A stretch of DNA of 64,000 nucleotides from positions 6,905-70,904 of the forward strand of contig JAKQNF010000027.1 in NCBI GenBank assembly GCA_029565935.1, in the 5' to 3' direction. Under the pieces are notes generated by a model. That model saw only the letters and a list, made by a program, of their open reading frames with translations. It made no database searches and had not been told where the DNA came from. Below, one piece after another: positions 9,360 to 38,497 of the stretch; position 1 is the first letter of the stretch, and each line of letters opens with the position of its first letter. Origin of the DNA: Bacillota bacterium (GTDB lineage Bacteria > Bacillota > DTU025 > MWDF01). A program made the translations under genes and the position numbers.

Positions 9360-10218
<859 letters not shown>

Positions 10219-10235
10219 ATTGTCTTTCAAGAATA

Positions 10236-10354
10236 TTCCGGCGGCGTCCTACTCTCCCGGGCCGTTGCCAGCCGAGTACCATCGGCGCTGGAGGGCTTAA
10301 CTACTGTGTTCGGAATGGGAACAGGTGTGGCCCCTCCGCCTTTACCACCGGAAA
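10236..10354 (-). rRNA. rrf: 5S ribosomal RNA (orphan copy embedded in tRNA operon)
   Basis: Minus-strand sequence ...CACACCTGTTCCCATTCCGAACACAGTAGTTAAGCCCTCCAGCGCCGATGGTACT...GGGAGAGTAGGACGCCGCCGG matches universal 5S loop C/helix IV motifs. Helix I CCGGUGG/CCGCCGG pairs. Ends approximate within a few nt. Confidence 0.85.
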
Positions 10355-10384
10355 ACCTAAGGGTTTCCCCATATTTCCTTATGG

Positions 10385-10470
10385 TGGTGGAGAGAGGTGG
10401 ATTCGAACCACCGTACCCATCCGGGAACAGATTTACAGTCTGTCGCCTTTAGCCGCTCGGCCATCTCTCC
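10385..10470 (-). tRNA. tRNA-Tyr(GTA), long variable arm
   Basis: GGAGAGATGGCCGAGCGGCTAAAGGCGACAGACTGTAAATCTG... ACCA. Confidence 0.85.
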
Positions 10471-10490
10471 ACGATTACCTACTTGTCTTC

Positions 10491-10565
10491 TGGAGCCGAC
10501 GATGGGATTCGAACCCGCAACCTGCTGATTACAAATCAGCTGCTCTACCGTTGAGCTACGTCGGC
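10491..10565 (-). tRNA. tRNA-Thr(TGT)
   Basis: GCCGACGTAGCTCAACGGTAGAGCAGCTGATTTGTAATCAGC... Confidence 0.85.
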
Positions 10566-11449: not shown

Positions 11450-11812
11450 TCACTGCTTGATCAAGCCCAGCTTCGCTTTCTCGGCTAGCTCGGTGAAGGC
11501 CGAGGCGTCGCGCACTGCGATATCGGCCAGCACCTTGCGGTTGACCTCAACGCCGGTCGCCTTAAGGCCTGCGATGAACCTGCTGTAAGACAGCCCGTTC
11601 AACCTCGAGGCCGCATTTATCCTGGCAATCCAGAGCTTCCTGAACTCGCGCTTGCGGTTACGCCTGTCACGATAGGAATATGTAAGTGAATGGAGCATCG
11701 CCTCATGGGCGCGCCTCCATATCTTGCTCTTCGCTCCCGTAAAGCCCTTCGCGTACTTGAGTGTCTTGTTATGCCTTCTCTTTGATACGAAACCGCCCTT
11801 TACCCTTGCCAT
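11450..11812 (-). CDS. rplT: 50S ribosomal protein L20
   Basis: [24 protein letters not shown]... canonical L20. Confidence 0.95.
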
Positions 11813-11849
11813 TATCTGTCACTCCCTCGTAAAATCTGCTTGCCTCTAC

Positions 11850-12047
11850 CTAGGAGTAGGGCAACATGCGGTGGATGTTAGCGGCGGTCCCGCTGTCTGC
11901 TATCTTCGTGCCCCTCTTGACCCTAATCGCCTTGGGGGTCTTGTGTTCCAGCTTGTGCCTCTTGCCGGTCTTCTGGAACTTCACTTTTCCGGTGCCTGTG
12001 ATCTTGATCCTCTTGGAGGCACCCTTATGGGTCTTCATCTTAGGCAT
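11850..12047 (-). CDS. rpmI: 50S ribosomal protein L35
   Basis: [22 protein letters not shown]... canonical L35. Confidence 0.95.
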
Positions 12048-12086
12048 CTGCTTGTCCTCCCTGACGCATATGATGCGTTGAACTTA

Positions 12087-12599
12087 TCAGCCCTGTTTCG
12101 GGGCCAGTATGGTGAACATGTTGCGACCCTCAATCATCGGGGGCCTTTCTACTACAGCGACTTCGCTCAGCAGTTCGGTGAGCTTCAGAAGGTGTCTCTG
12201 GCCGAGCTCAGGATGTGCCATCTCGCGGCCCCTGAACCTTATGGTCGCTTTGACCTTGTCGCCTTCCCTGAGCCACTTATCGGCTGCTTTGTACCAGACG
12301 TTGAAGTCATGCTCGCCGATCTTGACACTCATCCTTATTTCCTTTACGTCGACCACATGCTGCTTCTTCCTGGCCTCGCGCTCCTTCTTCGTCTGCTCGT
12401 ACTTGAACTTTCCGTAGTCCATGATCTTGCATACGGGAGGCTTGGCGGCAGGCGCTACTTCAACGAGGTCCAGGTTCCTGTCCACGGCGGCTTTGACGGC
12501 ATCTCTGATGTTCATGATCCCCAGCTGTTCTCCGTCCTCCGTAACCACGCGCACTTCCCTCGAGCGTATCTCGTCGTTGATGTAGAGTTCTTTGCCGAT
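12087..12599 (-). CDS. infC: Translation initiation factor IF-3 with non-AUG (AUC, possibly AUA at 12605) start
   Basis: In-frame upstream residues IGKELYINDEIRSREVRVVTEDGEQLGI continue the IF-3 N-domain beyond the GTG chosen by the track. Frame is closed by TGA at 12606-12608. GGGGGTGA SD sits 7 nt before ATC at 12599. Confidence 0.8.
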   Translation of the reverse strand: MGKELYINDEIRSREVRVVTEDGEQLGIMNIRDAVKAAVDRNLDLVEVAPAAKPPVCKIMDYGKFKYEQTKKEREARKKQHVVDVKEIRMSVKIGEHDFNVWYKAADKWLREGDKVKATIRFRGREMAHPELGQRHLLKLTELLSEVAVVERPPMIEGRNMFTILAPKQG

Positions 12600-12620
12600 A
12601 GTTATTCACCCCCATAAAAT

Positions 12621-12654
12621 TAAAGGCCGGGCATATACATCCGCCCGGCCTTAA
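12621..12654 (-). terminator. Hairpin GGCCGGGC...GCCCGGCC followed by TTTAATTTTAT between thrS and infC (thrS terminator/infC attenuator)
   Basis: Inverted repeat and T-tract read directly. Confidence 0.5.
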
Positions 12655-12782
12655 GCCTTACTGTTGTCAACCGGACCGCTTGGGCGGTACGGTGAGAAGC
12701 GGATGCTTCTTCTTGTTTCAGTTCTTAGTCATGTTACCAATTTGCGGCCCCCGTGTCAAGCAACGAGGCCAAAGTCCCTGGT

Positions 12783-20264: not shown

Positions 20265-20385
20265 GCGAATTGCTCCTCATCACAGGCTCGCCGGTTACAT
20301 GGCAGGCACCATCTGCGCGGCACCGTTTCAGCCAAGCCCGAGCGGCAGTATGGCAGACATGCTGCCACAGGTTAAAAGTATATCG
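20265..20385 (-). promoter_or_regulatory. Structured 121-nt 5-prime leader of rplU (candidate L21 leader)
   Basis: Multiple nested inverted repeats (e.g. GGCAGCATGTCTGCCATACTGCC). Firmicutes commonly carry an L21 leader RNA here. Confidence 0.3.
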
Positions 20386-23292
20386 TTACTGGACTTCCAT
20401 GTCAATGGCCTGAGGTTTCACGGCTTCCTTCTTCACCGTCCTCTTCCTGCTAGACGGCTTCTTTGGCTTTTCAGCCGGCTCACTAGCGGATTCAGGGGTC
20501 CCTGACGGTACCGCCTCCACCTTGGCCTTATCGGCCTTCTTGGCAGTCGTCGACGTCTTCTTCCTCGGTGCAGGAGTCGTCTTCTCCTTGGCTAAGGACT
20601 GTTCTTTTTCTTCCTTTGCCTTCGCCGTGGATTTCTTGGCCTCGGAAGTAGAGGTGCTTTTCTTTGCCTTTGCCGGTGTCCTCTTAACGGCAGCCTTGGC
20701 GGTTGCCGGCTCCTTAGCACCTTCAGGGGATTTCCCGGCCGGAACAACCTTTACCTCAGGTCTTCCGTCTTTTTCGGGAGATGGCCCTTTAGTCGTTTCG
20801 AGTCTGGGCGCATCATCGGATTTGTGCCCTTCATGCGGGCGCTGCACCATTGGTTCGGGCTGCTTCGTCGGTACGGCGGCAGGCTCGGCCTTTTTCAGTT
20901 CGTGTCCTGAAGTATCCTCCCGCGGCCCTTCCTTCTTCGTATCCGAAGCCCTTGCCATCGTCATCCCAGCCGGTGCTGGTTTAGGCGCCTCGGTTACAGT
21001 CATCGCGCCGGCTAAGTGCCCTATCGTCCCTGCACTTGCATGGCCAGTCTTTCCAACGTTATGCGTCACAGGCGTTTTGCTCGCTTCAGGTACTTGGGCA
21101 TGCTCCTTAGCCGCTTGTCCCACAGTGAGCTGGGCAGCCGTATCTACTTGAGCATCTACTTTAACAGCAGCGTCAGATTGTGCTGCGGCTTCCGTGCCAG
21201 CGGGCTTCTTCCCGCGATGGCGACGACGGCGTCTCTTCTTCGCGACCTTGGCCACGTCGATGATAGCCTCGCCGACCAGGACCGCCCCTGCAACCTTGAT
21301 ATCGGCGCCTTCAGCGCCTTTCCCTTGCGTCTCCGATGCCGGTTCTTCCACTGCCGGCATGGTCTGCTGCTTCTCTTCCTGGCCTTCGCCGGTCGGAGCG
21401 GCCCCTTCCTTCGCAGGTTTGCGATGGCGGCGGCGGCGCCTCTTCCTCTTTGCCTCCTGCGAGGGTACACCTTCGGCTACGATCGGTGTCCCGGGCTCCT
21501 CGAAGCCCACAACGGCTGATTCCAGGCCATCTTCATCGAAGTCCTCTTCGGCCAGCACTGATGGCTTGTACACATGCGGCCTGCCTTCGATCCTCGCCTT
21601 GGCGAAGCTCTTAAACACCCTTACGATCTTCGCCCTGACCGACTTGCCGACCAAGTCTCCGGCATCTTCCACATGGATCGGCAGGCCGTTGTACATGCCT
21701 ATGCCATATTCGTTCCTGGTTTCGTCTGGCTGACCAATGACTACGTCCACGGCGTCGCCCTTCTTGACCGGGTGCACCAATGATAGTATCTCCTCCAGGC
21801 TCCCTGCCGCGAGCACCTTCACGTCCTCACGTGCGAGCGACGCGTCCGCCCTTATGAAGATATCCCTTAAGGTCTGCTCCTCCAGCTGCTTGATGGCTGC
21901 GCCCCCGTCTTGTGAGAGCTCCTCCGCCACATACGGATTCAATCCTATGAGGAGCGCTTGCATGTCGGTAGTGGCAGCTTCCCTCTTGATGAGCCTTTCG
22001 GCCCTCAGCGCCAGGGTCTCCTCGGAGATCACCTTGCCCCTGCCTTCGCATACGTCGCACACCCTGTGCGTCAGCTCGACCAGCCCCTGTTGGGACTTTT
22101 TCCTGGTCATCTCTATGAGGCCGAGCTTCGTGATGCCAAGGACGGATGTCTTCGCCTTGTCCTTCAGCAGGTGCTTCTCCAGCTCATCGAGCACGCGCTT
22201 CCTGTGGTCCTCGGATTCCATGTCTATGAAGTCGGCGATTATGATGCCACCTATGTTCCTAAGGCGCAGCTGGCGGGCAATCTCTCCTGCCGATTCGATG
22301 TTGTTCCTGAAAGCCGTGTCCTCGAGGTCCTTGCTTCCTGTGAACTTGCCGGTGTTGACATCCACCACCGTAAGGGCCTCCGTCGTATCGAATATCAGGT
22401 ATCCGCCGCTGCTGAGCCACACTTTCCGCCTAGTGGCCTTCCAGATCTCGTCCTCGATCCCGTATGCCTCGAAAACGGGCTTCTTATCCGAATAGAGCCT
22501 TATCCTCGGATCCTTCTCCATCTCGTCGAGATGCAGCAGGTCGGAGACCTTATTATAATCCGCTGTGGTGTTTACCGTGAACTCGGTAACGTCGTCGCCG
22601 AAGTAGTCCCTGGCCATCCTGTAAACCAGGTCGGCGTCATAGTGCAGCAGGCAGGGCGGCTTGGACCTGGCGGCCCTGGCCCTGATCTTCTTCCATGCCC
22701 TCGTCAGGAATTCTATGTCCCTGACTATCTCCTCGTCGGGCTGCTCTTCCGCCACGGTCCGTACAATGAGCCCCATCCCGCGCGGCTTGGCCTTGTTGGC
22801 CAGCTTCCTCAGCCTGTCCCTAGTCTCGTCGTCCACTATCTTGCGGCTTACGCCGACGTAGTTGACCGAAGGTATCAGGACGACGTACCGGCCGGCTAAC
22901 GTCACGTCCGTGACCACGCGCGCGCCCTTGGTGCCGATCGCTTCCTTAGTCACCTGGACGAGGACGTCCTGCCCAGGCTTCAGCAGTTCCTTGATGCTCT
23001 TGCTCCTGCTCTTGGGGAGTTCCACATCGTCGCCGTTCCTGGTGGCCCTAACTATCTCCGGAAGGCTCGCGGTGGCGTCGTCAACGTAGAGGAACGCGTT
23101 CTTCTCGAGCCCGATGTCTACGAACGAGGCCTGCATCCCCGGCAGGACGTTCTCAACCCTGCCCTTGTAGATGTTGCCGAGGACCGAAGGGTGCCTGCTC
23201 CTTTCGATGAACAGGTCGGCCAGCTTCCCGTCCTCTATGACGGCGGCCCTTACTTCCCCGTTGCTGTTGTCAATAACTATCTTCCTCGCCAC
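20386..23292 (-). CDS. rng: RNase E/G-family endoribonuclease with about 450-aa disordered K/A/E/P/R-rich C-terminal tail (969 aa from GTG at 23292)
   Basis: S1 domain (VLGNIYKGRVENVLPGMQASFVDIG). DNase-I-like catalytic core (ADFIDM). Zn-link CDVCEGRG. GTG start with AGGAG SD. Track ORF over-extended at N-terminus. Confidence 0.85.
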   Translation of the reverse strand: MARKIVIDNSNGEVRAAVIEDGKLADLFIERSRHPSVLGNIYKGRVENVLPGMQASFVDIGLEKNAFLYVDDATASLPEIVRATRNGDDVELPKSRSKSIKELLKPGQDVLVQVTKEAIGTKGARVVTDVTLAGRYVVLIPSVNYVGVSRKIVDDETRDRLRKLANKAKPRGMGLIVRTVAEEQPDEEIVRDIEFLTRAWKKIRARAARSKPPCLLHYDADLVYRMARDYFGDDVTEFTVNTTADYNKVSDLLHLDEMEKDPRIRLYSDKKPVFEAYGIEDEIWKATRRKVWLSSGGYLIFDTTEALTVVDVNTGKFTGSKDLEDTAFRNNIESAGEIARQLRLRNIGGIIIADFIDMESEDHRKRVLDELEKHLLKDKAKTSVLGITKLGLIEMTRKKSQQGLVELTHRVCDVCEGRGKVISEETLALRAERLIKREAATTDMQALLIGLNPYVAEELSQDGGAAIKQLEEQTLRDIFIRADASLAREDVKVLAAGSLEEILSLVHPVKKGDAVDVVIGQPDETRNEYGIGMYNGLPIHVEDAGDLVGKSVRAKIVRVFKSFAKARIEGRPHVYKPSVLAEEDFDEDGLESAVVGFEEPGTPIVAEGVPSQEAKRKRRRRRHRKPAKEGAAPTGEGQEEKQQTMPAVEEPASETQGKGAEGADIKVAGAVLVGEAIIDVAKVAKKRRRRRHRGKKPAGTEAAAQSDAAVKVDAQVDTAAQLTVGQAAKEHAQVPEASKTPVTHNVGKTGHASAGTIGHLAGAMTVTEAPKPAPAGMTMARASDTKKEGPREDTSGHELKKAEPAAVPTKQPEPMVQRPHEGHKSDDAPRLETTKGPSPEKDGRPEVKVVPAGKSPEGAKEPATAKAAVKRTPAKAKKSTSTSEAKKSTAKAKEEKEQSLAKEKTTPAPRKKTSTTAKKADKAKVEAVPSGTPESASEPAEKPKKPSSRKRTVKKEAVKPQAIDMEVQ

Positions 23293-23296
23293 AATC

Positions 23297-24016
23297 TCAG
23301 CTCCTAAATACTTCGGAAAAGGCTGTGTCGGCGCAATCGTCCATGGGGTCCTGCAATCCGCGGCCGAGGTCGATAAAAAGCCCTGTCCTGCAAAAATCGT
23401 ATGCTCCGGAGTAAAGTCCGCCCGAAACGGCCGACAAAGCATCGACGAAATACTGCGGCCTGAGGTTCTTGTCGCCGCACGCGACCTCTACCTCCAAGGC
23501 GCCGTCGACCGCCCTTACGGCGTATACCAGGCCCTTTACGTCCTTCTCCTTGCCGTCCCTGCCCAGGACCGTGACCGAGGGTGTAGCCTTGAAGGCCTCG
23601 ATCGCATCTTGCAGCGATCCGCAGGACCACCCGGCCTCATCCCGGCAGAACGGCTTTATCAAATACCTCGCCCTTCTTATCTTGGCGGGAAGGGCATAAC
23701 CGCCTCCAAACCTACCTACCGCTATCAGCGGCATCGTCTCGGGGAACGCGGACGACGCCATGCACAGCACGTCCGCGGGTTCGATTCCCCTCTCAAGCAA
23801 TACGTCCATGTGTTCCGCCACCGAACCTACGCCCACCTGCAGCGCGGCGGCGAACGTCATCTTGGGTCTGGGGCTGAACCCTTCGGAGTATAACACAGGC
23901 AGGCCCATTCTCCTAATGGCCCTTTCTACTGCGCGGATGGTGTCCAGATGGGATATATATCTCCCCGGGCCCACCTTGCCGTACTTTATCCTTATTGCCT
24001 CGAACTGTCCTGCCAT
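23297..24016 (-). CDS. Radical-SAM-linked protein (DUF2344-like), partner of adjacent radical SAM gene
   Basis: 239 aa. Always-adjacent partner arrangement upstream of rng, as typical for Clostridia. Family recalled from memory. Confidence 0.55.
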   Translation of the reverse strand: MAGQFEAIRIKYGKVGPGRYISHLDTIRAVERAIRRMGLPVLYSEGFSPRPKMTFAAALQVGVGSVAEHMDVLLERGIEPADVLCMASSAFPETMPLIAVGRFGGGYALPAKIRRARYLIKPFCRDEAGWSCGSLQDAIEAFKATPSVTVLGRDGKEKDVKGLVYAVRAVDGALEVEVACGDKNLRPQYFVDALSAVSGGLYSGAYDFCRTGLFIDLGRGLQDPMDDCADTAFSEVFRS

Positions 24017-25879
24017 CTACTCCTCCGGGCCCCTAACCACGTTCTTGATCCCGCCTTCGCAGACACCGCACAGGTTGCATGCCGTGAACCTGCAGTCTCC
24101 GGTGTTCTCTACCTGCCTTGCCTTCTCGAACTCCAAGGCGAGGAAGTCCGTCCTTACCTTAGTGTCTATGTGCCCCCAGGGAAGCCGCTCGGTGCGGGCG
24201 AATCCTCTCGAGGCCTCCGTGTCCATGTCCATGCCCGCCTCTTCCATCGCCTTGATCCAATACCCGGGCATTATGCACTCGCCCCAGCCATCGAACCTGG
24301 CACCGAGCTCATATGCCCTCGTTATCACACCGGCCATCGTCCTCGTGCCCCTCGAGAGGACCGCTTCCAGCTTGCTCGTGAAAGCATCCGAAAGCGAAAG
24401 CGTGATCCCCTTGGCCTTCATAAGGCCCCTCAGCCTCGCCTTCTTACCTTCGGTGATCTCCGATCTCTCAAGGCCCAGCCATTGGAACGGGGTGTGCGGC
24501 TTGGGTATGAGGGTCCCGACGCTTACATTGATCCTTATCCTCGACGGCGGCCTGCCCTTTCCTGCGGCCACCTCCCTTCCCAGTGCGAGAACCTTGAAGG
24601 TAAGGTCTGCGATCCCCTCCACGTCTTCAAGGGCCTCGAAAGGAAGGCCTATCATGAAATAGAGCTTCACCTGCTCCCAACCCGCCTCGAAAGCCGCCCT
24701 CGCTGCGGACATCAGGTCCTCTTCCGTCACGCCCTTGTTAATTATGTCCCTCATCCTCTGGGTACCGGCCTCGGGCGCGAACGTGAGCCCGGTCTTCCTG
24801 TGCGTGCCGACCTTACGTGCGAGCTCTATCGAGAAAGCGTCTATCCTAAGGGATGGCAAGGAGACTGCCACGCCCTTTTCTGCCAGCTCCGGAGCCATCC
24901 TGTCCACCAGTGGGCCTATCGCCGAGTAGTCCGCCGTCGAGAGAGAAAGTAGCGACACCTCGTCGTAGCCGCACTTCGCTGATGATTCCAATGCGGCGGC
25001 CCTCACCGTCGATGCCTTCCTCTCCCTTACGGGCCTGTTTATATATCCAGCCTGGCAGAACCTGCAGCCCCTCTCGCATCCGCGCATGACTTCCACGACG
25101 GTCCTGTCGTGAACGCACTCCACGAACGGCACGACCTCGTTACTTAGGGCAGCAGGGAATCTCTCCAAGTCGTCCAGCACCCTCCTTCTGATGCTCACGC
25201 TCGAAGGGTCATGCACGGCGGGGACGTAGAAGCCTTCCAGGGCGGACAGCGCCTCCAGCGCCTGCTTCTTGGATATCGTACGCGAGCGCCTCATCTCCAG
25301 AATCCACATGATCTCGCCCATCGCCTCTTCGCCATCTCCGATGAGGAAGGCGTCGAAGAACTCGGCCAGCGGCTCGGGGTTTACCGTACAGGAACCTCCT
25401 CCGATGACCAGAGGGTCTTCCTCTCCTCTTTCGGATGATCTCAACCTCATCCCGGAAAGGTCGATAAGCTGCAGGACATTGGTGTACGAGAGCTCGTACT
25501 GGAGGGTTATCCCAATGGCGTCGAAGCGTTTCGCAGGGCTCAGGCTCTCCAGTCCGTACAACGGGACGGATTCGTTCTTCATCGCCCTTTCCATGTCGGG
25601 CCATGGAGAGTACGCCCTTTCGGCACGCCAGCCCTCATGGGAGTTCACAAGGTCGTATAGTATCTTGAAGCCCAGGTAGGACATTCCCACCTCGTACGCG
25701 TCCGGGAATGCGAGCAGTATGGACGCTTTTGTCTTGTCCCAGTCGGCCCCGATCGCACCGAGCTCGCCGCCGGCGTACCTGCCAGGCTTCTGCACCATCG
25801 GCAGGATCCTCTGCTCCAGCCGCCTCCTTATTGTCTCCGGCCCGTCTGCGCAGGCCGCTTTCATCCCATATATTCCCAT
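24017..25879 (-). CDS. Radical SAM protein with B12-binding-like N-terminal domain (uncharacterised family)
   Basis: CERGCRFC = CxxxCxxC radical SAM motif. Start assigned to MGIYGMKAAC at 25879 with GAGGGG SD. Track ORF is longer. Confidence 0.7.
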   Translation of the reverse strand: MGIYGMKAACADGPETIRRRLEQRILPMVQKPGRYAGGELGAIGADWDKTKASILLAFPDAYEVGMSYLGFKILYDLVNSHEGWRAERAYSPWPDMERAMKNESVPLYGLESLSPAKRFDAIGITLQYELSYTNVLQLIDLSGMRLRSSERGEEDPLVIGGGSCTVNPEPLAEFFDAFLIGDGEEAMGEIMWILEMRRSRTISKKQALEALSALEGFYVPAVHDPSSVSIRRRVLDDLERFPAALSNEVVPFVECVHDRTVVEVMRGCERGCRFCQAGYINRPVRERKASTVRAAALESSAKCGYDEVSLLSLSTADYSAIGPLVDRMAPELAEKGVAVSLPSLRIDAFSIELARKVGTHRKTGLTFAPEAGTQRMRDIINKGVTEEDLMSAARAAFEAGWEQVKLYFMIGLPFEALEDVEGIADLTFKVLALGREVAAGKGRPPSRIRINVSVGTLIPKPHTPFQWLGLERSEITEGKKARLRGLMKAKGITLSLSDAFTSKLEAVLSRGTRTMAGVITRAYELGARFDGWGECIMPGYWIKAMEEAGMDMDTEASRGFARTERLPWGHIDTKVRTDFLALEFEKARQVENTGDCRFTACNLCGVCEGGIKNVVRGPEE

Positions 25880-25893
25880 ATTTCCCCTCAGAC

Positions 25894-27015
25894 CTAAAAT
25901 AGTATCTTCTTCCTTCGCATGCTGACGCTCTGGGCCATCCCGAGGCCCATCAGCGTCGCCATCACGGATGACCCAGCCGCGCTGAAGAAGGGCAGCGGTA
26001 TCCCCGTGCAGGGCATTATCGCCATGCTCATCCCCACGTTTATCGCCACGTGGGTGGCCATTATCGTCGAGATGCCTATGCACATCAGATTACCGAACCT
26101 GTCCTCGGTCGACATACCGATGCGAAGGCATCTCCATATCACCGCCATCAGGACCAGAAGCGCTACGGCCGCCCCGATGAAACCCAGCTCCTCGCCTATC
26201 ACCGTAAAGATGAAGTCGCTGTGGTGCTCCGGGACGAAACCCAGCTGCACCTGCGTGCCGCCAGTATATCCCTTACCTAGCAGGCCGCCGGAGCCTATGC
26301 CTATTACCGACTGTATCACGTTGTAGCCCGCACCGAACGGGTCCCTCCCGGGATTGAAGAAGGTCAGGATCCTCGCCTTCTGGTAATCGTCAAGGAACAG
26401 GAAGTAGCCCAGCGGCGCGGCCACGAAGATGCCCGCGGCGATAAGCCCCAGCACTATCTTCGTATCAGCTCCAGCAGCCCAAAGCATGGCCAGGACCATC
26501 GGGATAAAGACAAGGGCAGAGCCCAGGTCGTTCTGCAGTATCACTATCCCGGTCGGCACGGCCGCCATCAATAGCGGCACGACCATCTCACCAATTCCCA
26601 GCGGCCCTTCTTTTCTTGCCAGCTGCCCTGCGAGCGCGATGGCGACGCCGTACTTCACGAATTCTACCGGCTGGAGCGAGACCCCAGCCACCCTTATCCA
26701 TCCGAGGGCCCCTCTTACCCTTGTGCCGACGAGAGTAACCGCTACTAGAAGCAGGATGGACCCCGCGTATACCATAAGGTGCGTCCTTTGCAGTATGCGG
26801 TGCCCGATTATCATGAAAAAGGCCGCGAGCAGCAGGCCGATCAGCCCTGCGACGGCCTGTTTCTTGACCATCGACAGAGGATCGGACGACGTCAGGGACG
26901 GTTGAGCGTACGTCGCGCTGTACAGCACCACGCATCCGTACGCGAACGCTGCCGCGGTCACTATCACCAACAGCATGTCGACGTCCCTTAGCATCTTCCT
27001 GTTCAATAGGTTCAA
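25894..27015 (-). CDS. rodA: SEDS-family peptidoglycan glycosyltransferase RodA (FtsW/RodA/SpoVE family)
   Basis: 373 aa, 10-TM SEDS pattern. Located in mre/mrdA cluster. Confidence 0.8.
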   Translation of the reverse strand: MNLLNRKMLRDVDMLLVIVTAAAFAYGCVVLYSATYAQPSLTSSDPLSMVKKQAVAGLIGLLLAAFFMIIGHRILQRTHLMVYAGSILLLVAVTLVGTRVRGALGWIRVAGVSLQPVEFVKYGVAIALAGQLARKEGPLGIGEMVVPLLMAAVPTGIVILQNDLGSALVFIPMVLAMLWAAGADTKIVLGLIAAGIFVAAPLGYFLFLDDYQKARILTFFNPGRDPFGAGYNVIQSVIGIGSGGLLGKGYTGGTQVQLGFVPEHHSDFIFTVIGEELGFIGAAVALLVLMAVIWRCLRIGMSTEDRFGNLMCIGISTIMATHVAINVGMSMAIMPCTGIPLPFFSAAGSSVMATLMGLGMAQSVSMRRKKILF

Positions 27016-33524: not shown

Positions 33525-34352
33525 CTAGGCTTCTACTCTAAGGTCCGAATCGGGGCCGAACAGGTTGTGTATGCACTTGACCGGGCATTTCTGTACGCAA
33601 ATGCCGCACTTCGTACACTTCGAGTTGTCGATCACCGCTACGGTCCCGTTCATGCTGATGGCGCTAGTCGGGCAGTTCTTGACACATATCTGGCATCCGA
33701 TGCAGACCGCCGAGCAGTCCTGCTTGCTCTTGGGGATCGGGGCCTTCGAGCAGCAGACTACGTTCACCGGCTCCTCCGCGCTCCTAAGAGCGAGGAGCTT
33801 CCTGGGACAGACAGATACGCACTTGCCGCAGCCGGTGCACTTCGAGTCGTCTATCTTTGGCAGGCCGTCCTCTCCCATGTACATGGCATCGAACGGGCAC
33901 TCCCTGACACAAGAGCCGATGCCGAGGCAACCGTACGAGCAGGCCTTGAACCCACCGCTCACAGCGTTGGCAGCGGCGCAGGTGTCTATGCCCTTGTACT
34001 CGGCGATGTCCTTCGCTATCCCTTTCCCGCCGGCGCACATGAGCCTTGAGAACTTAGGGCCGTCTCCCGCTTCCAGCGCGACGCCCATTATCTCCGCGAT
34101 CTTCGCCGCCACACTTGAGCCGCCGACAAGGCACGATCCGCAAGGTGCCTTCTCCTCGCTTATCGCCTTGGCGAGCCCGTTGCAACCGGGATATCCGCAT
34201 GCGCCGCAGTTGGCGCCCGGCAGGACTCCTAGTATCATGTCTACCTTGGGATCGTGCTCCACTGCGAGCAGCTTCGCCGCCACGGCCAGGGCCACTCCGA
34301 ACACGAGGCCCATGCCACCCAGTATAAGAAGGCTGTTAACAATCATTTCCAC
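33525..34352 (-). CDS. rnfB: Rnf complex subunit B (poly-ferredoxin)
   Basis: N-terminal TM plus multiple CxxCxxCxxxCP clusters. Confidence 0.85.
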   Translation of the reverse strand: MEMIVNSLLILGGMGLVFGVALAVAAKLLAVEHDPKVDMILGVLPGANCGACGYPGCNGLAKAISEEKAPCGSCLVGGSSVAAKIAEIMGVALEAGDGPKFSRLMCAGGKGIAKDIAEYKGIDTCAAANAVSGGFKACSYGCLGIGSCVRECPFDAMYMGEDGLPKIDDSKCTGCGKCVSVCPRKLLALRSAEEPVNVVCCSKAPIPKSKQDCSAVCIGCQICVKNCPTSAISMNGTVAVIDNSKCTKCGICVQKCPVKCIHNLFGPDSDLRVEA

Positions 34353-34372
34353 TCACCCCCGTAAGCCGTCGA

Positions 34373-34969
34373 TCATAGGCCGAACAGCTTCTCGAGGTTG
34401 AAACCGGAGAAGCCAAGGAAAGCCATCGCCATCTGCGCGGTTATGATCAGCGCCAGAGGGAAGCCCTGGAAGGACTTCGCTATAGGCGCGGTATTGAGCT
34501 TTTCCCTCAGGGCGGCCATCGCTATTAGGACAAGGGAGAACCCTATCCCGCCTCCCGTGCCAGAGATAACCGCCTGGATGAAGTTATACCCTTCGCGTAC
34601 GTTGATCACGGCGACGCCGAGCACGGCGCAGTTGGTCGTGATGAGCGGCAGGTAGATGCCCAACGCCCTGTAAAGCGTGGGGCTCATCTTCAGGATAATC
34701 ATCTCGATCAGCTGGACCAGCGCCGCGATGACGAGGATGAAGGAGACCGTCTGCAGGAAGCCCAGTCCGAGGGGTACCAGCAGGTAATACTGGACCATCC
34801 AGGTGACCGCGGCGGCCAGGCTCATCACGAATATGACGGCGGCGGCCATGCCCATCGCGGTGTCGAACTGGTTCGACACGCCAATGAAGGGGCAGGTGCC
34901 CATTATCCTGGCCAGCATGTAGTTGTTTACGAGTATCGTGCTAAGCAGTATTATAAAGAGCTCTTTCAT
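34373..34969 (-). CDS. rnfA: Rnf complex subunit A
   Basis: 198 aa, 6-TM, RnfA/NqrE-like. Confidence 0.85.
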   Translation of the reverse strand: MKELFIILLSTILVNNYMLARIMGTCPFIGVSNQFDTAMGMAAAVIFVMSLAAAVTWMVQYYLLVPLGLGFLQTVSFILVIAALVQLIEMIILKMSPTLYRALGIYLPLITTNCAVLGVAVINVREGYNFIQAVISGTGGGIGFSLVLIAMAALREKLNTAPIAKSFQGFPLALIITAQMAMAFLGFSGFNLEKLFGL

Positions 34970-34974
34970 GACCG

Positions 34975-35631
34975 CTATACCTCCTTCGCGGCACAGGCTG
35001 CGCTAGCCTGCTTGGCCTTCTTGCTCCTGCTCGTGATCCCGTTGATCGACGCGAGCACGAAGCCGAGGGTCATGAAGCCGCCTACCGGCTTGTCTACCAG
35101 GGCCGCTGCGAACTTGGCGGGTATGAGCTTTATGCCTTCGAAACCGAAGTCCTTGGCGTAGAGTATCTTGCCCGTCGCTATGGGCTCCCTTATTATCGCA
35201 AGGATGATCACTGCCAACGTGAAGCCGAGCCCCATACCCAGGCCGTCGGCGATCGAATCGACGACGCCGTTCTTGTATGCGAACGCCTCTGCCCTCGCCA
35301 GGATGATGCAGTTGACGACTATCAGAGGCACGAACACGCCCAATATCCTGTGCAGGTCCGGCAGATAGGCGGCCATGCTCAGGTCTACGATCGTCACGAA
35401 CGTGGCGATGACGACGATGAAGCAGGGTATCCTGATCTTGTCGGGTATCATGTTCCTGAGGGCCGATATGAACAGGTTGCTGAATACTAGGACGAACGTA
35501 GCCGCGAGGCCCATGCCTACCGCATTGGACACGGCCGTTGAAGATATCATCGCGGGACACATGCCTATAAGCATGGCGAAGGTAGGGCTTTCGGCCCATA
35601 GGCCCTTCTTGAACTCCTTGAATGCGCTCAT
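34975..35631 (-). CDS. rnfE: Rnf complex subunit E
   Basis: 218 aa RnfE/NqrD-like membrane protein. Confidence 0.85.
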   Translation of the reverse strand: MSAFKEFKKGLWAESPTFAMLIGMCPAMISSTAVSNAVGMGLAATFVLVFSNLFISALRNMIPDKIRIPCFIVVIATFVTIVDLSMAAYLPDLHRILGVFVPLIVVNCIILARAEAFAYKNGVVDSIADGLGMGLGFTLAVIILAIIREPIATGKILYAKDFGFEGIKLIPAKFAAALVDKPVGGFMTLGFVLASINGITSRSKKAKQASAACAAKEV

Positions 35632-35645
35632 TGCCGCCTACCCCC

Positions 35646-36206
35646 TTACATCCCGAGGAGGGCCTTGGCTATATTGAGGGCCTTGTTGACCCCCGCCACG
35701 GCACCCTTGGAAGAAATCGTGGCGCCCGAAATCCCGTCAATCTGGCCGCCCTCTTTCACTAGGGACAGTACGCCCTTCTTGCCGGCGAACTGGCCGTAGA
35801 ACGGCTCCTCCTTGACGTTGGCGCCCAGGCCGGGTGTCTCGCTCTGGCTGATGACCTGCATACCTTGGCATACGCCCTGGGTATCCATGCCCACCAGCAT
35901 CGTGATCATCCCGCCGTATCCTGCGCTCTCGACCTTGACGATCGCGCCGACGGTCGAGCCGGCAGCTTTACCCAGATAGGCCTCCACGACCCCCTGTGCC
36001 CCGCCGGACGCTGCCGAGAGCTCTATCGCCGGTATCGGCTCGAAGTCGGTGGCCGAAGGAAGCACCACAGCCATCGCCTTCATGGCCTCCTTGGCCTGCC
36101 TCGCCTCAATGATTACGCTGGTCTTGCTGTAGACGAATGCAAGCGACACGCCCGATATCACGCAGATGACCGTCAGTATCGCACCGTATCTGATGAAATC
36201 ACGCAC
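35646..36206 (-). CDS. rnfG: Rnf complex subunit G (FMN-binding)
   Basis: DGISGATISSKGAV covalent-FMN motif. Confidence 0.85.
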   Translation of the reverse strand: MRDFIRYGAILTVICVISGVSLAFVYSKTSVIIEARQAKEAMKAMAVVLPSATDFEPIPAIELSAASGGAQGVVEAYLGKAAGSTVGAIVKVESAGYGGMITMLVGMDTQGVCQGMQVISQSETPGLGANVKEEPFYGQFAGKKGVLSLVKEGGQIDGISGATISSKGAVAGVNKALNIAKALLGM

Positions 36207-37176
36207 GGTTGCGCACCTCCCCGAAACGCTTCTGCGCGCCGAACCTCTCGATGAGTGGCACGAAGCAGTTCATAAGAAGTATCGAAAACGCCACGCCCTC
36301 GGGGTAGCTCCCGAACATCCTTATCATGAACGTGAATATCCCGAGCCCGACGGCGTAGACTATCTGTCCCGCAGGTTTTATCGGGCTGGTCACATAGTCC
36401 GTCGCCATGAAGAAGGCGCCGAGTATGAGACCGCCTGAGAGCAGGTGGAATATGGGGTCCTGGTTGAAGAGCATCGCAAGGCCTGCGGTCGTCAGCAAGT
36501 ACACGAGAGGTATCCTCAAGGTTATGATCCCGGCGAACAGCAGGAAAAGCGCCCCGATGAGAAGAGCTATCGCCGAAGTCTCGCCGAGCGATCCTCCCAC
36601 GTTCCCGAAGAAGAGTGGTCCGTAGAACCTGGACAGCGAAGTAGCGCCGATCTCCCCCGTCTTAAGGAGGCCGAGAGGCGTCGCCGACGCCACTACGTCG
36701 AATCCGCGCTTCCATGCGGTTATCCCGTCCGCTGCGACATATCCTGCGCTAAGCACCGAAGGCCAGGAAAGGGCCGCGAAAGTCCTGCCTATAAGGGCAG
36801 GGTTGAAGATGTTGTAACCCAGGCCGCCGAACACGATCTTGCCGGGGCCTATCGCTATGAGGCAAGCAAGTGCGGTGACCCAAGGCTCTACCGCCGGAGG
36901 CAGCGTTAACGCCACCAGTAGTCCGGTCAATGCCGCCGAGCCGTCGCTTATAGTAATATCGAACTTCCATATCTTCTGGATCGCATATTCCCAAAGGACC
37001 GCTGAAGCCACGCCTACCACCAGGTTGATGGCGGCCCAAGGGCCGAAGAAATAGACTCCGCACAGGGCCGCGGGCATCAACGCGATGAAGACGACCTGCA
37101 TTATCCTCGGTGTCGCGACCCTGTCCCTCAAGTGGGGCGCTGCGGTGATTATTAGGCCTTTTTCGGACATGTCCAT
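36199..37176 (-). CDS. rnfD: Rnf complex subunit D
   Basis: RnfD/NqrB-like polytopic protein. Start approximate (MDMSEKG). Track ORF overlaps rnfC end. Confidence 0.8.
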   Translation of the reverse strand: MDMSEKGLIITAAPHLRDRVATPRIMQVVFIALMPAALCGVYFFGPWAAINLVVGVASAVLWEYAIQKIWKFDITISDGSAALTGLLVALTLPPAVEPWVTALACLIAIGPGKIVFGGLGYNIFNPALIGRTFAALSWPSVLSAGYVAADGITAWKRGFDVVASATPLGLLKTGEIGATSLSRFYGPLFFGNVGGSLGETSAIALLIGALFLLFAGIITLRIPLVYLLTTAGLAMLFNQDPIFHLLSGGLILGAFFMATDYVTSPIKPAGQIVYAVGLGIFTFMIRMFGSYPEGVAFSILLMNCFVPLIERFGAQKRFGEVRNRA

Positions 37177-37183
37177 CACCCCG

Positions 37184-38497
37184 TCACTTCTTGCGCCTGG
37201 CCAAGGCATATTGCTTGGCCAGCTTAATCGACTGCACCAACGGCCTCTTCGAGGGGCAAACGTACGAGCAGCACCCGCATTCCATGCAGTCGGCGGCGAA
37301 TAGTTTCTCCGCCCTGGCCATGTCTTCGGCCAGCGCGTATTTATGAATCTCCGAAGGCTGCAGGAACATCGGGCAGACCTCGTTGCACCTGCCGCACCTT
37401 ATGCAAGGCATCTCCTTCCAGAAGAGCGCCTGCTGCCGTCCCAGCAGCACTATGCCAGAGGTGCCTTTGGTTATGGGGAAGTCCAGGCTAGGCACGGCGA
37501 CTCCCATCATGGGACCGCCGAATATTGCCTTGCCGAGCTCTCCCTTGACGCCCCCGCACAGCTCTACGAGTTCGGACGCATATGTCCCGATGTAGGCCTC
37601 CACGGTAGCAGGCCTGCTTACGGCCTCGCCGGATACCGTTACGTACCGCTTGATCAAAGGCAGGCCTGTCGTGAACCTGTCGGAGATGGCGGCTGCGGTC
37701 CCGACGTTAACCACTACGACCCCTACGCTGAATGGCAGCGCACCCGGAGGCACCTCGCGGCCCAGCGTCGCTTTTATGATGGCCTTCTCATACCCTTGCG
37801 GGTAACTGGATTTCAAAGGCATCACCTCGATGCCCTGGTACTTGCCGGCCGCGGCCGTGAGCGCCGCTATGGCGTCGGGCTTATTGTCCTCGACGCCTAT
37901 GATGGCCCTCTTCACGCCGACGCTCCTCATGACTATGTAGGTGCCGTGGACCACCTTGTCGGCCTTCTCCGTCATCATCCTGTGGTCGGAGGTGAGATAA
38001 GGTTCGCACTCGCCGCCGTTGACCACCACGGTGTCCACTTTCACTCCCTGGGGCAGCGACAGCTTAACATGGGTGGGGAACTCGGCCCCTCCCATCCCCA
38101 GCATGCCGGCTTCCCTGATGACGTTCCTGATTTCCTCCGGAGTCATCGAATCCAAGTCCTCGACCGGCGCGATCCCCTCGCATAGCTCCTGCTTCCCATC
38201 CGATTCGATCGTTATGCCAAGGAACTCCAGCCCTGTATGGGCCCTATATGGCTTAGCATCCACTACCTTGCCGGATACCGGGGAGTGCGTCGGAACGCAC
38301 ATGAAGCCCTCGTTGTCCGCCAACTTCTGACCCACCTTGACTTCGGTCCCCTTGGGAGCCAGCACTTTGTAGCCTACCCACGAAGGACCTACCGGCACCG
38401 TCACCCTTGCCGGCACGGGCGCCGTGACAGTCCCGGCATCGCACGCATACTTGCACTGTGCCGGGTGTATGCCTCCGACGAACGTCCTTACAGCCAT
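37184..38497 (-). CDS. rnfC: Rnf complex subunit C (NADH-binding, 2x[4Fe-4S])
   Basis: CIRCGRCNEVCP and CMECGCCSYVCP ferredoxin motifs. 437 aa. Confidence 0.9.
   Translation of the reverse strand: MAVRTFVGGIHPAQCKYACDAGTVTAPVPARVTVPVGPSWVGYKVLAPKGTEVKVGQKLADNEGFMCVPTHSPVSGKVVDAKPYRAHTGLEFLGITIESDGKQELCEGIAPVEDLDSMTPEEIRNVIREAGMLGMGGAEFPTHVKLSLPQGVKVDTVVVNGGECEPYLTSDHRMMTEKADKVVHGTYIVMRSVGVKRAIIGVEDNKPDAIAALTAAAGKYQGIEVMPLKSSYPQGYEKAIIKATLGREVPPGALPFSVGVVVVNVGTAAAISDRFTTGLPLIKRYVTVSGEAVSRPATVEAYIGTYASELVELCGGVKGELGKAIFGGPMMGVAVPSLDFPITKGTSGIVLLGRQQALFWKEMPCIRCGRCNEVCPMFLQPSEIHKYALAEDMARAEKLFAADCMECGCCSYVCPSKRPLVQSIKLAKQYALARRKK

What the first reader, a model, noticed from the sequence alone, without database searches (positions are those of the whole stretch)
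20386..21480. RNase E/G homologue with about 450-aa intrinsically disordered Lys/Ala/Glu/Pro-rich tail containing two near-identical Arg-rich boxes
The catalytic N-terminal half is a conventional RNase G. The C-terminal half is low-complexity. It contains KRKRRRRRHRKPAKEG (about 21415-21450) and KKRRRRRHRGKKPAGTE (about 21215-21250) separated by an acidic stretch. It ends in an AKKSTSTSEAKKSTAKAKEEKE histone-H1-like segment. This resembles the RNA-binding/scaffold region of proteobacterial RNase E degradosomes more than the short RNase G of typical Firmicutes. It may nucleate an RNA degradosome or condensate in this lineage.
Basis: seen in the sequence. Interest (0 to 1): 0.6.

Follow-up and report, generated by a model that had tools for sequence, protein, structure and literature searches.

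The report
RNase E-like enzyme with disordered tail
An RNA-cutting enzyme of the RNase E/G family from an uncultured anaerobic-digester bacterium (Bacillota) carries a real, conserved, about 390-residue floppy tail with two invariant arginine boxes. These boxes most likely grip RNA, which gives this enzyme an E. coli-style tail in a phylum whose versions are described as short.

Summary
The gene is at 20386..23292 on the minus strand, starts with GTG and encodes 968 aa. It is an Rne/Rng-family endoribonuclease with every catalytic, 5'-sensor and Zn-link residue of E. coli RNase E. A TRAM-like barrel follows, then about 392 residues (not 450) that AlphaFold2 predicts as fully disordered.

The two Arg boxes lie at 21415-21450 and 21202-21240. 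They are invariant in every close relative examined, although the tails are only 23-57% identical. Their codons vary synonymously, so selection acts on the protein. Tail dN/dS is about 0.3-0.4. The exact 968-aa length is seen on about 35 contigs, so the tail is not a frameshift artefact or a one-off expansion.

A sister clade with the same gene order has unalignable tails that also carry Arg clusters, as do unrelated tailed family members.

The best reading is an RNase E-type noncatalytic region whose Arg boxes are RNA-binding short motifs set in blocks of opposite charge. Partner docking or condensate formation is plausible but untested.

It is not a "conventional RNase G": it misses that model's cut-off and has an extra TRAM domain. 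The conserved C-terminal "IDT/IDM" peptide is probably held by an embedded rplU promoter (TTGACA-N17-TATACT).

Verdict: a new variant of a known kind, of moderate interest.

The parts
20386..23292 (-). Whole gene for a 968-aa Rne/Rng-family endoribonuclease. GTG start at 23292; stop codon at 20386-20388.
   Evidence: start codon and SD; Pfam; TIGR00757, 481 bits against 326; independent gene call of identical length.
21802..23292 (-). Residues 1-497: S1, 5'-sensor, RNase H-like, DNase I-like, Zn-link and small domain. This is the catalytic core.
   Evidence: Aligns to E. coli RNase E residues 3-463 at E 4e-86 and Foldseek E 3e-38. Equivalents of V128, R169, T170, D303, N305, D346, C404 and C407 are V138, R178, T179, D311, N313, D354, C412 and C415. 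All are invariant in the close relatives and all but V138 in 37 relatives.
21583..21771 (-). Residues about 508-570: a TRAM-like five-stranded beta-barrel, probably an RNA-binding module, between the small domain and the tail.
   Evidence: Pfam TRAM scores only 14.2 bits here (cut-off 21) but 35-37 bits in orthologues P0010, P0029 and P0100. AF2 gives five strands at pLDDT 85-90. Foldseek gives local hits to TRAM domains of RumA, RlmCD, MM1357 and MMP0076 at rmsd 1.1-2.7.
20389..21564 (-). Residues 577-968: the intrinsically disordered C-terminal tail (A/K/E/P-rich, net positive).
   Evidence: AF2 pLDDT 31-44 with no secondary structure. Composition and charge are. dN/dS is 0.3-0.4 against 0.01-0.07 in the core. 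No Pfam family matches and there are no tandem repeats.
21415..21450 (-). Arg box 1, KRKRRRRRHRKP (residues 615-626), preceded by conserved acidic residues (E607, E613).
   Evidence: K-x-K-RRRRR-H-R is invariant in 8 of 8 close relatives. Synonymous codon variation occurs inside the box. The box is also present in frameshifted L006.
21202..21240 (-). Arg box 2, KKRRRRRHRGKKP (residues 685-697).
   Evidence: KK-x-RRRR-x-R...P is invariant in 8 of 8. Forms a 28-nt, 86% direct repeat with box 1. Synonymous variation is shown.
21241..21414 (-). Spacer between the boxes (residues 627-684): an acidic stretch followed by a hydrophobic segment, IKVAGAVLVGEAIIDVAKVA (21241-21300).
   Evidence: Charge blocks -1, -3, -1, 0, +1. 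The hydrophobic segment is shared only with P0002 and is not predicted helical.
20407..20766 (-). Distal Lys/Ala/Pro/Ser/Thr-rich region (residues 843-962). It includes the AKKSTSTSEAKKSTAKAKEEKE segment (about 20605-20670) and a third basic box, EKPKKPSSRKRTVKKE (20425-20472).
   Evidence: charge blocks +2 to +5; the only KAEP-rich window in a real gene of the 64 kb. The K/R box is conserved in position in 8 of 8, with K942 invariant.
20377..20405 (-). Sigma-70/sigma-A-type promoter TTGACA-N17-TATACT. The -35 hexamer lies inside the last codons of the gene (I-D-M) and the -10 just after the stop. It is the presumed promoter of rplU-prp-rpmA.
   Evidence: 11 of 12 match. Both hexamers and the 17-nt spacing are conserved in the window and L001-L005.

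Best explanation
**What it is.** The region is the noncatalytic C-terminal part of an RNase E-type endoribonuclease, in an uncultured Bacillota lineage from anaerobic digesters.

**The enzyme.**
- The N-terminal 500 residues are a complete RNase E/G catalytic core: S1 domain, 5'-monophosphate sensor, Mg2+ site, and a Zn-link for dimer and tetramer formation.
- A TRAM-like RNA-binding barrel follows.
- About 390 residues of disordered chain come next.

**How the tail most likely works.**
- The two invariant boxes (K-K-K-R5-H/R-R) are short linear motifs that bind RNA electrostatically, like AR1 and AR2 of E. coli RNase E.
- Each box sits next to an acidic block, so the proximal tail alternates positive and negative charge.
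- The distal Lys/Ala-rich part and a third K/R box add further polyanion-binding sites.
- A tetramer would then carry many RNA-binding sites on flexible arms. These would capture long or structured substrates and hand them to the catalytic core, by the 'direct entry' route that does not depend on the 5' end.
- The same multivalency could drive RNA-dependent clustering.

**Shown and inferred.**
- Shown: family membership, catalytic residues, predicted disorder, conservation of the boxes and charge blockiness.
- Inferred: RNA binding by the boxes.
- Speculative: scaffolding of partner enzymes and condensate formation.
For: **Core.**
- TIGR00757 scores 481 bits against 326.
- The core aligns to E. 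coli RNase E at E 4e-86 with all functional residues kept. Foldseek gives 3e-38.

**Disorder.** AF2 pLDDT is below 50 with no secondary structure from residue 577 to the end, while residues 1-570 fold.

**Selection on the boxes.**
- They are the only invariant stretch in tails that are 23-57% identical.
- Synonymous codons vary inside them.
- Two R5 runs never arose in 200,000 shuffles.
- Both boxes are also present in the frameshifted ninth relative.

**The tail as a whole.**
- It is under relaxed purifying selection, with dN/dS 0.30-0.38 in the pairs where dS is about 1.
- Charge segregation exceeds shuffles in all 8 clade members, z = 4.6-8.9.

**Recurrence elsewhere.**
- A sister clade with identical gene order has unalignable tails that still carry Arg clusters. 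In all, 22 of 24 further tailed relatives have at least one such cluster.
- Unrelated tailed Rne/Rng representatives and an Armatimonadia homologue also show R5-R8 boxes in acidic, Ala/Pro-rich tails.

**Precedent.**
- AR1 and AR2 of E. coli RNase E bind RNA (PMC4435900; bioRxiv 10.64898/2026.08.11.744331).
- Arginine-rich charge blocks drive RNA-stimulated condensation in Caulobacter (PMC10412687).
Against: - There is no experiment and no direct computational test of RNA binding.
- A run of arginines also binds other polyanions or acidic protein surfaces. In cyanobacteria an RRRRRRSSA motif binds PNPase, not RNA (PMC3964918).
- No known RNase E microdomain (membrane-targeting sequence, or helicase, enolase or PNPase site) is detectable.
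- dS between most pairs is at or near saturation, so the dN/dS values are rough.
- Closely related orthologues without tails exist (P0011 and P0016, nested in the sister clade), so the tail is dispensable in some lineages.
- In M. smegmatis deletion of the RNase E IDRs has modest in vivo effects (PMC12767347).
Confidence: 0.6

Rival explanations
1. The Arg boxes are mainly protein-docking sites, so the tail is a degradosome scaffold. Each box recruits a partner such as PNPase, as the Arg-rich nonapeptide of cyanobacterial RNase E does. The rest of the tail acts as a linker. This is compatible with RNA binding rather than strictly exclusive of it.
For: - In Anabaena and Synechocystis, RRRRRRSSA alone is sufficient to bind PNPase, and there is a second Arg-rich conserved subregion, C2. 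This is the same 'two Arg boxes in a variable tail' layout (PMC3964918, PMC10989914).
- Conservation is strict, including a His at a fixed position in box 1 and a Pro after box 2. That is more specific than plain charge.
Against: - The neutral SSA residues that were essential in cyanobacteria are absent here.
- The sister clade has quite different Arg motifs, such as KRNGRRSRRGSGR. A conserved partner surface would not predict this.
- No partner gene lies nearby.
- No PNPase-binding Pfam domain is found.
Confidence: 0.25
2. The tail targets the nuclease to ribosomes or pre-ribosomal particles. The enzyme would then be mainly an rRNA-maturation factor, as RNase G is for 16S rRNA. Its basic tail would behave like the extensions of ribosomal proteins.
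For: - The gene is fixed immediately upstream of rplU-prp-rpmA in both clades, and the rplU promoter is embedded in its last codons.
- The distal K/A-rich composition resembles the tails of ribosomal proteins.
- Contact between the E. coli CTD and the 30S subunit has been suggested (bioRxiv 10.64898/2026.08.11.744331).
Against: - Tail-less orthologues keep the same gene neighbourhood, a general Firmicutes arrangement as far as I know. Synteny therefore does not explain the tail.
- rRNA is still RNA, so this is a sub-case of RNA binding rather than a distinct mechanism.
- There is no direct evidence.
Confidence: 0.15
3. The tail is a histone-H1-like DNA-binding element that tethers the nuclease to the nucleoid.
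For: - The distal part has a Lys/Ala/Pro/Ser/Thr-rich composition.
- Such tails bind DNA in some actinobacterial nucleoid proteins (my own knowledge, not tested here).
Against: - No linker-histone, HC2 or other DNA-binding family matches.
- The K/A-rich composition is not conserved. P0003, P0004 and the sister clade have only 4-9% Lys, while the Arg boxes are conserved.
Confidence: 0.07
4. The tail is functionally neutral low-complexity sequence that drifts and expands, or an assembly or frameshift artefact.
For: - Tail sequence diverges fast: 42% identity where the core is 97%.
- Tail length varies from 288 to 399 aa in the clade.
- Tail-less orthologues exist.
- The tail alone finds no homologues.
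Against: - The reading frame stays open and ends at the same place in all intact relatives from independent assemblies.
- dN/dS is below 1.
- The boxes are invariant despite synonymous change.
- No DNA tandem repeats indicate recent slippage.
Confidence: 0.04

Closest known systems
E. coli / gamma-proteobacterial RNase E (catalytic N-terminal half plus disordered C-terminal half with AR1, AR2, MTS, HBS, EBS and PBS microdomains)
   Same: - The catalytic core is the same, with all key residues.
- A long disordered C-terminal region has biased A/E/P(/V) composition.
- Two arginine-rich short motifs are embedded in it.
- The tail diverges fast around conserved microdomains (PMC4435900).
   Different: - The E. 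coli-type RNase E model scores 300 bits against a cut-off of 908.
- There is no membrane-targeting helix and no recognisable helicase, enolase or PNPase site.
- An extra TRAM-like domain is present.
- The boxes are pure K3-R5-H-R runs rather than the dispersed R-rich AR1 and AR2.
- The distal part is Lys-rich.
Cyanobacterial RNase E (short disordered tail with conserved subregions C1-C4; Arg-rich C2 and the C4 nonapeptide RRRRRRSSA, which binds PNPase)
   Same: Two short, strictly conserved Arg-rich boxes are separated by variable disordered sequence (PMC3964918, PMC10989914).
   Different: - The cyanobacterial model scores 344 bits against a cut-off of 900.
- The boxes lack the essential SSA.
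- Neither box is at the extreme C-terminus.
- The tail is two to three times longer.
Caulobacter crescentus RNase E (C-terminal IDR of alternating charge blocks that forms BR-bodies)
   Same: Arginine-rich positive blocks alternate with acidic blocks. Charge segregation is well above random, z = 4.6-8.9 (PMC10412687).
   Different: - There is no GWW PNPase motif.
- Only the proximal 120 residues or so are clearly blocky.
- Phase separation is untested.
Actinobacterial RNase E (Mycobacterium, Streptomyces), with IDRs on both sides of the catalytic domain
   Same: - It is a Gram-positive lineage with long IDRs that contribute to RNA binding (PMC12767347).
- The gene sits next to rplU-rpmA (my own knowledge for actinobacteria).
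   Different: - Here there is a single C-terminal IDR and no N-terminal one.
- The mycobacterial model scores 312 bits against a cut-off of 1400.
Short RNase G / Rne-Rng enzymes of Bacilli and Clostridia, and the 560-590-aa S1-catalytic-small domain-TRAM enzymes of Limnochordia and other Bacillota
   Same: The catalytic core and TRAM domain are the same (47-56% identity), and where seen so is the radical SAM-DUF2344-rne-rplU neighbourhood.
   Different: They end within about 0-35 residues after the TRAM domain, whereas this protein continues for about 390 residues.

Membership tests
Rne/Rng family ribonuclease (TIGR00757 / PF10150) | Whole-domain profile match above the curated cut-off | tested here: met
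   TIGR00757 scores 480.9 bits against 325.95, covering 1-414 of 415 positions. PF10150 gives E 4e-102 over 1-269 of 270.
Rne/Rng family ribonuclease (TIGR00757 / PF10150) | Mg2+-binding catalytic residues (E. coli D303, N305, D346) | tested here: met
   D311, N313 and D354 align to them. They are invariant in 37 relatives.
Rne/Rng family ribonuclease (TIGR00757 / PF10150) | 5'-monophosphate sensor pocket (V128, R169, T170) | tested here: met
   V138, R178 and T179 align to them. All three are invariant in the 8 close relatives, and R178 and T179 also in 37 relatives.
Rne/Rng family ribonuclease (TIGR00757 / PF10150) | Zn-link CxxC motif for dimerisation (C404, C407) | tested here: met
   C412 and C415 lie in VCDVCEGRG. 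They are invariant in 37 relatives.
RNase G (NCBIfam NF008689 equivalog) | Score above the equivalog cut-off; about 490-aa protein without extensions | tested here: not met
   445.9 bits against a cut-off of 594. The protein is 968 aa, with a TRAM domain and a 392-aa tail.
RNase E sensu E. coli (NF008074), cyanobacterial (NF052586), mycobacterial (NF052588) | Score above each equivalog cut-off | tested here: not met
   299.7 against 908, 344.2 against 900, and 311.9 against 1400.
RNase E-type degradosome scaffold | Long intrinsically disordered noncatalytic region | tested here: met
   AF2 pLDDT is below 50 with no secondary structure over residues 577-968. The biased composition has no aromatic residues in 606-968.
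RNase E-type degradosome scaffold | Conserved arginine-rich RNA-binding microdomains | tested here: inconclusive
   Two invariant Arg boxes are present, but RNA binding itself was not tested.
RNase E-type degradosome scaffold | Microdomains that bind partner enzymes (PNPase, helicase, enolase) | not testable with these tools
   No known partner motif or Pfam PNPase-binding domain was found. No multimer prediction or interaction data are available.
RNase E-type degradosome scaffold | Membrane-targeting amphipathic helix (gamma-proteobacterial type) | tested here: not met
   The best candidate, residues 667-686, has a hydrophobic moment of only 0.41-0.44. AF2 does not predict it as helical, and it is present in only 2 of 8 relatives.
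BR-body-type condensate scaffold | IDR organised as blocks of opposite charge | tested here: met
   Charge segregation z = 4.6 for the window protein and 6.2-8.9 for its 7 relatives, against shuffles.
BR-body-type condensate scaffold | RNA-dependent phase separation | not testable with these tools
   This needs purified protein or live-cell imaging.
TRAM domain (PF01938) | Profile match above the gathering score, or the TRAM beta-barrel fold | tested here: met
   By sequence the window protein is sub-threshold (14.2 bits against 21), while orthologues score 35-37 bits. By structure, five strands at pLDDT 85-90 give Foldseek local matches to the TRAM domains of RumA, RlmCD, MM1357 and MMP0076 at rmsd 1.1-2.7 Å.

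The most novel reading that the evidence does not exclude
An uncultured order-level group of Bacillota has independently built an RNase E-centred RNA-decay machine on an RNase G-like core. It consists of the catalytic core, a TRAM barrel, and a fast-evolving charge-blocked IDR with invariant twin K3-R5-H-R boxes. This machine would recruit RNA and partner enzymes, forming a degradosome and/or BR-body-like condensates. The phylum is thought to rely on RNase Y and RNase J and to have only short RNase E/G enzymes.
Probability: 0.3. Interest if true: 0.55.

Novelty: new variant of a known kind. Interest (0 to 1): 0.38.

Why it matters

This lineage and a sister clade show otherwise. Bacillota do contain RNase E-type enzymes with long disordered tails and conserved arginine motifs. 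Similar 'Arg box in an acidic tail' designs also recur in other uncultured phyla.

This adds further, apparently separate instances of the IDR-plus-Arg-motif design alongside Proteobacteria, Cyanobacteria and Actinobacteria. It also provides a compact, sharply defined pair of motifs that could be tested directly for RNA binding, partner docking or condensation.

It is an incremental extension of a known principle, not a new kind of system.

Tried and rejected
1. **Homology search with the tail alone** (391 aa). 8000 word-sharing candidates were scored and none reached E <= 0.01. The tail cannot be traced by sequence outside its own clade.
2. **Pfam on the tail and on its K-rich end** at E <= 10. 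Nothing meaningful matched: no linker histone, no PNPase-binding domain.
3. **Tandem repeats and recent slippage.** Tandem Repeats Finder found none. Only the 28-nt box-to-box repeat and short chance repeats appeared.
4. **Membrane-targeting helix before box 2.** Rejected. The hydrophobic moment is weak, AF2 does not predict a helix, and it is present in only 2 of 8 relatives.
5. **The C-terminal 'x-I/V-D-T/M' peptide as a partner-binding motif.** Set aside in favour of a DNA-level constraint. Its codons spell the -35 hexamer TTGACA of a promoter conserved in 6 of 6 loci.
6. **Rfam for the conserved rplU leader.** No family matched at gathering score or at E <= 10, and L21_leader was not matched.
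7. **Degradosome partner genes in the 64-kb window.** None were found among the ORFs scanned, which are housekeeping genes: rpoB, thrS, the mre, min and rodA genes, Rnf, valS, lon, clpXP and tig.
8. **Papers on RNase E/G with a TRAM domain or long tails in Bacillota or Clostridia.** None turned up in the held library. The classification paper by Aït-Bara and Carpousis (2015, Mol Microbiol) did not surface in the searches and I did not read it.
9. **Genome-level census of RNase Y and RNase J** in tailed and tail-less lineages.


Full report
**1. What is in the sequence**

The finding lies in the 3' part of a single minus-strand ORF, 20386..23442.
- The ATG at 23442 would overlap the upstream DUF2344 gene by 146 nt.
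- The GTG at 23292 has an AGGAG upstream and lies 4 nt after the DUF2344 stop. All relatives begin at the equivalent M/V-ARKIVIDNS.
- An independent metagenome gene call gives the same 968-aa product.
- I therefore number the protein 1-968 (gene 20386..23292).

Family assignment:
- Pfam finds RNase_E_G (E 4e-102) and the RNase E/G small domain.
- NCBIfam TIGR00757 (Rne/Rng) passes its cut-off.
- The RNase G equivalog fails (446 against 594 bits), and so do all three RNase E equivalogs.

Match to E. coli RNase E:
- The protein aligns to E. coli RNase E residues 3-463 at E 4e-86.
- Counting along that alignment, the residues are kept:

| E. coli residue(s) | Role | This protein |
|---|---|---|
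| V128, R169, T170 | 5' sensor | V138, R178, T179 |
| D303, N305, D346 | Mg2+ site | D311, N313, D354 |
| C404, C407 | Zn-link | C412, C415 |

- All eight are invariant in the close relatives, and all but V138 among 37 relatives.
- A Foldseek search of the AlphaFold2 model returns E. coli RNase E structures at E about 3e-38.

**2. Architecture beyond the core**

AlphaFold2, run with a 37-sequence alignment, folds residues 1-570. From residue 577 to the end it gives pLDDT 31-44 with no secondary structure.

Between the small domain and the tail lies a five-stranded barrel (about residues 508-570, pLDDT 85-90).
- Pfam TRAM is sub-threshold in this protein (14 bits).
- It is clear in orthologues (35-37 bits).
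- The model gives local Foldseek matches to the TRAM domains of RumA, RlmCD and the stand-alone TRAM proteins MM1357 and MMP0076, at rmsd 1.1-2.7 Å.

The structured part is therefore not a "conventional RNase G". It is an Rne/Rng core plus a TRAM RNA-binding domain. This architecture is shared with many 560-590-aa Bacillota and Limnochordia enzymes.

**3. The tail and the boxes**

The tail covers residues 577-968, window 20389..21564.
- It is about 392 aa, not about 450.
- Over residues 606-968 it is A 17%, K 15%, E 10%, P 9%. It has no aromatic residue or Cys there, 34% charged residues and a net charge of +26.

The boxes:
- Box 1 is KRKRRRRRHRKP, residues 615-626, window 21415-21450.
- Box 2 is KKRRRRRHRGKKP, residues 685-697, window 21202-21240.
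- They hold 13 of the tail's 22 arginines.
- In 200,000 shuffles of the tail, a single R5 run arose in 0.02% and two never did.
- At DNA level they are a 28-nt, 86% direct repeat 207 nt apart.
- There is no tandem-repeat structure anywhere in the tail.

The spacer between the boxes is mildly acidic and ends in a hydrophobic stretch.

The AKKSTSTSEAKKSTAKAKEEKE segment is real, but it is not the end of the protein. 72 more residues follow, including a third basic box (EKPKKPSSRKRTVKKE).

Within the 64-kb window, no other real gene has an R4+ run or a KAEP-rich stretch.

**4. Is the tail real and conserved?**

Yes.
- The 90% cluster of this protein has 25 members. Those of 968 aa occur on about 35 contigs from NCBI genomes, JGI, ENA and Logan.
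- Seven further protein clusters make up clade A (P0002-P0005 and P0007-P0009, 858-969 aa). The corresponding GTDB genomes are Firmicutes bacterium ADurb.Bin153, a sludge-digester Bacillota genome and several "uncultured Clostridia". All have 288-399-aa tails.
- In their alignment the tail is otherwise almost free of conserved columns. The invariant ones are E607, E613, K615, K617, R618-R622, H623 and R624 (box 1); K685, K686, R688-R691, R693 and P697 (box 2); plus the isolated E650 and K942.
- The codons inside the boxes differ synonymously between genomes (AGG/AGA/CGC/CGT/CGA and CAT/CAC). The constraint is therefore on the peptide, not on the DNA.
- A ninth genome (L006) has frameshifts typical of an error-prone assembly but still encodes both boxes.

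Rates by region:

| Region | Amino-acid identity, window vs closest genome | dN/dS |
|---|---|---|
| Core | 97% | 0.01-0.07 |
| TRAM region | 75% | 0.11-0.35 |
| Tail | 42% | 0.30-0.38 (pairs with dS about 1) |

dS is near saturation, so these values are approximate. Together they show fast evolution under relaxed purifying selection, with two strongly constrained islands.

**5. Wider distribution**

- A sister clade (P0010-P0034, about 55% identical in the core) has the same gene order: minD-minE-rodA-M50 protease-radical SAM-DUF2344-rne-rplU-prp-rpmA-UPF0182-OGG (compare).
- Its tails are 100-570 aa and cannot be aligned with clade A. They nevertheless contain Arg clusters, such as KRNGRRSRRGSGR, SRRGGRQARAARARKAARA and KKSRSRRGRGGRGRSK.
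- Of the 32 tails longer than 100 aa examined, 30 have at least one window of ten residues with five or more Arg.
- Two tail-less orthologues (P0011, P0016) nest inside that clade, so tails can be lost.
- In a search of 1.84 billion representatives, clades A and B collapse to one representative each. Many other Rne/Rng representatives carry long N- or C-terminal extensions.
- All twelve C-tailed representatives I read show R4-R8 boxes in acidic, Ala/Pro-rich disordered sequence. So does an Armatimonadia homologue.
- "Arg boxes in a charge-patterned tail" is therefore a recurrent solution in this enzyme family.
- Charge segregation is significantly above shuffled controls in all eight clade A tails, z = 4.6-8.9.

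**6. Most likely mechanism**

By analogy with studied systems, the boxes are most simply RNA-binding short linear motifs on a flexible, multivalent arm of a tetrameric nuclease. They would raise substrate capture and favour clustering.
- AR1 and AR2 of E. coli RNase E bind RNA (PMC4435900; AR2 CRAC preprint 10.64898/2026.08.11.744331).
- The Caulobacter arginine-rich charge blocks promote RNA-stimulated condensation (PMC10412687).

The main rival, which is not exclusive, is partner docking. In cyanobacteria RRRRRRSSA binds PNPase, and a second Arg-rich subregion exists (PMC3964918, PMC10989914).
- Against a purely protein-docking role, the SSA residues are absent here.
- The sister clade also uses quite different Arg motifs.

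Ribosome targeting, nucleoid binding, neutral drift and artefact are weaker rivals; they are treated in the rival explanations. None of the functional claims could be tested with the tools available.

**7. A correction concerning the C-terminus**

The only conserved feature at the extreme C-terminus is x-[IVL]-D-[TM]-x3-4.
- Its codons spell TTGACA (window 20400-20405).
- TATACT follows exactly 17 nt later, just past the stop codon. Together they match the sigma-70 consensus at 11 of 12 positions.
- Both hexamers and the spacing are conserved in all six loci, although neighbouring codons vary.
- Downstream lies a highly conserved leader of about 110 nt before rplU.

The terminal peptide is therefore probably constrained by the rplU-prp-rpmA promoter, not by a protein function. 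This also pins the 3' end of the tail in place.

**8. Comparison with what is known, and novelty**

- The protein is a member of the Rne/Rng family, with all defining features met.
- It is not a member of the curated RNase G or RNase E equivalog families.
- It works like a Type-I (C-terminally extended) RNase E.
- Reviews list Firmicutes and Clostridia homologues as short and unable to form E. coli-type degradosomes (PMC3071783, PMC3997798).
- I found no paper in the held library describing long-tailed or TRAM-bearing RNase E/G in Bacillota. The main classification paper (Aït-Bara and Carpousis 2015) did not surface in the searches and I did not read it.
- I rate the finding as a new variant of a known kind. 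It has a known enzyme core and a known design principle. What differs is the lineage, the added TRAM domain and the motif pair.
- Interest is moderate (0.38).

Noticed in passing
window 20377-20405 (minus strand); also L001-L005: A near-perfect promoter, TTGACA-N17-TATACT, straddles the stop codon of the RNase gene. The -35 hexamer is encoded by the last I/V/L-D-T/M codons. Both hexamers and the spacing are conserved in 6 of 6 loci. This probably explains the conserved C-terminal peptide.
   Followed up: yes
window 20265-20376 (minus strand): The leader of about 110 nt between that promoter and rplU is highly conserved. It has an invariant 8-bp hairpin (GGCAG...CTGCC core) and a second long-range stem showing some both-sided changes. 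No Rfam family, including L21_leader, matches it.
   Followed up: partly
window 21583-21771 (minus strand): A TRAM-like RNA-binding barrel is fused after the RNase E/G small domain. It is weak by sequence here but clear in orthologues and by fold. I found no paper in the held library describing this fusion.
   Followed up: yes
window 21241-21300 (minus strand): A hydrophobic stretch, IKVAGAVLVGEAIIDVAKVA, lies directly before Arg box 2. This resembles a 'hydrophobic plus polybasic' membrane-binding pattern. However, it is shared only with P0002 and is not predicted helical.
   Followed up: partly
window 23292-26083 (minus strand); L081, L082, L083: The RNase gene starts 4 nt after a DUF2344 gene, which follows a radical SAM gene (Radical_SAM_N2). 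This trio, followed by rplU-prp-rpmA-UPF0182-OGG, is conserved in both tailed clades, which suggests co-transcription. The role of the radical SAM and DUF2344 pair is unknown.
   Followed up: partly
window 9975-10565 (minus strand): A 5S rRNA gene (10236-10352) is embedded in a cluster of six tRNA genes. No 23S or 16S rRNA match occurs anywhere in the 64-kb window.
   Followed up: no
window 12613-12720 (minus strand): An L20 leader (RF00558) scores just above its gathering score (60.2 against 58.7 bits), presumably ahead of infC-rpmI-rplT. The 297-aa plus-strand ORF at 11724-12617 has no Pfam hit and is probably a shadow ORF.
   Followed up: no
window 33525-43397 (minus strand): Several energy-metabolism genes cluster here: Rnf complex genes, formate-tetrahydrofolate ligase, a glutamate-synthase-like Fe-S flavoprotein pair and a multihaem cytochrome c (42480-43397). 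This hints at an acetogenic or syntrophic anaerobic lifestyle for the host.
   Followed up: no
L006:6001-8400: The orthologue in MAG MFD03899.bin.1.111 is broken by several frameshifts but still encodes both Arg boxes in different frames. This is probably assembly error rather than a pseudogene.
   Followed up: partly
L008 (Armatimonadia MAG), gene from 6001: A distantly related Rne/Rng (39% identical, 815 aa) has four R5-R7 boxes in an acidic Pro/Ala/Glu-rich tail. This is a distantly related example of the same tail design.
   Followed up: partly
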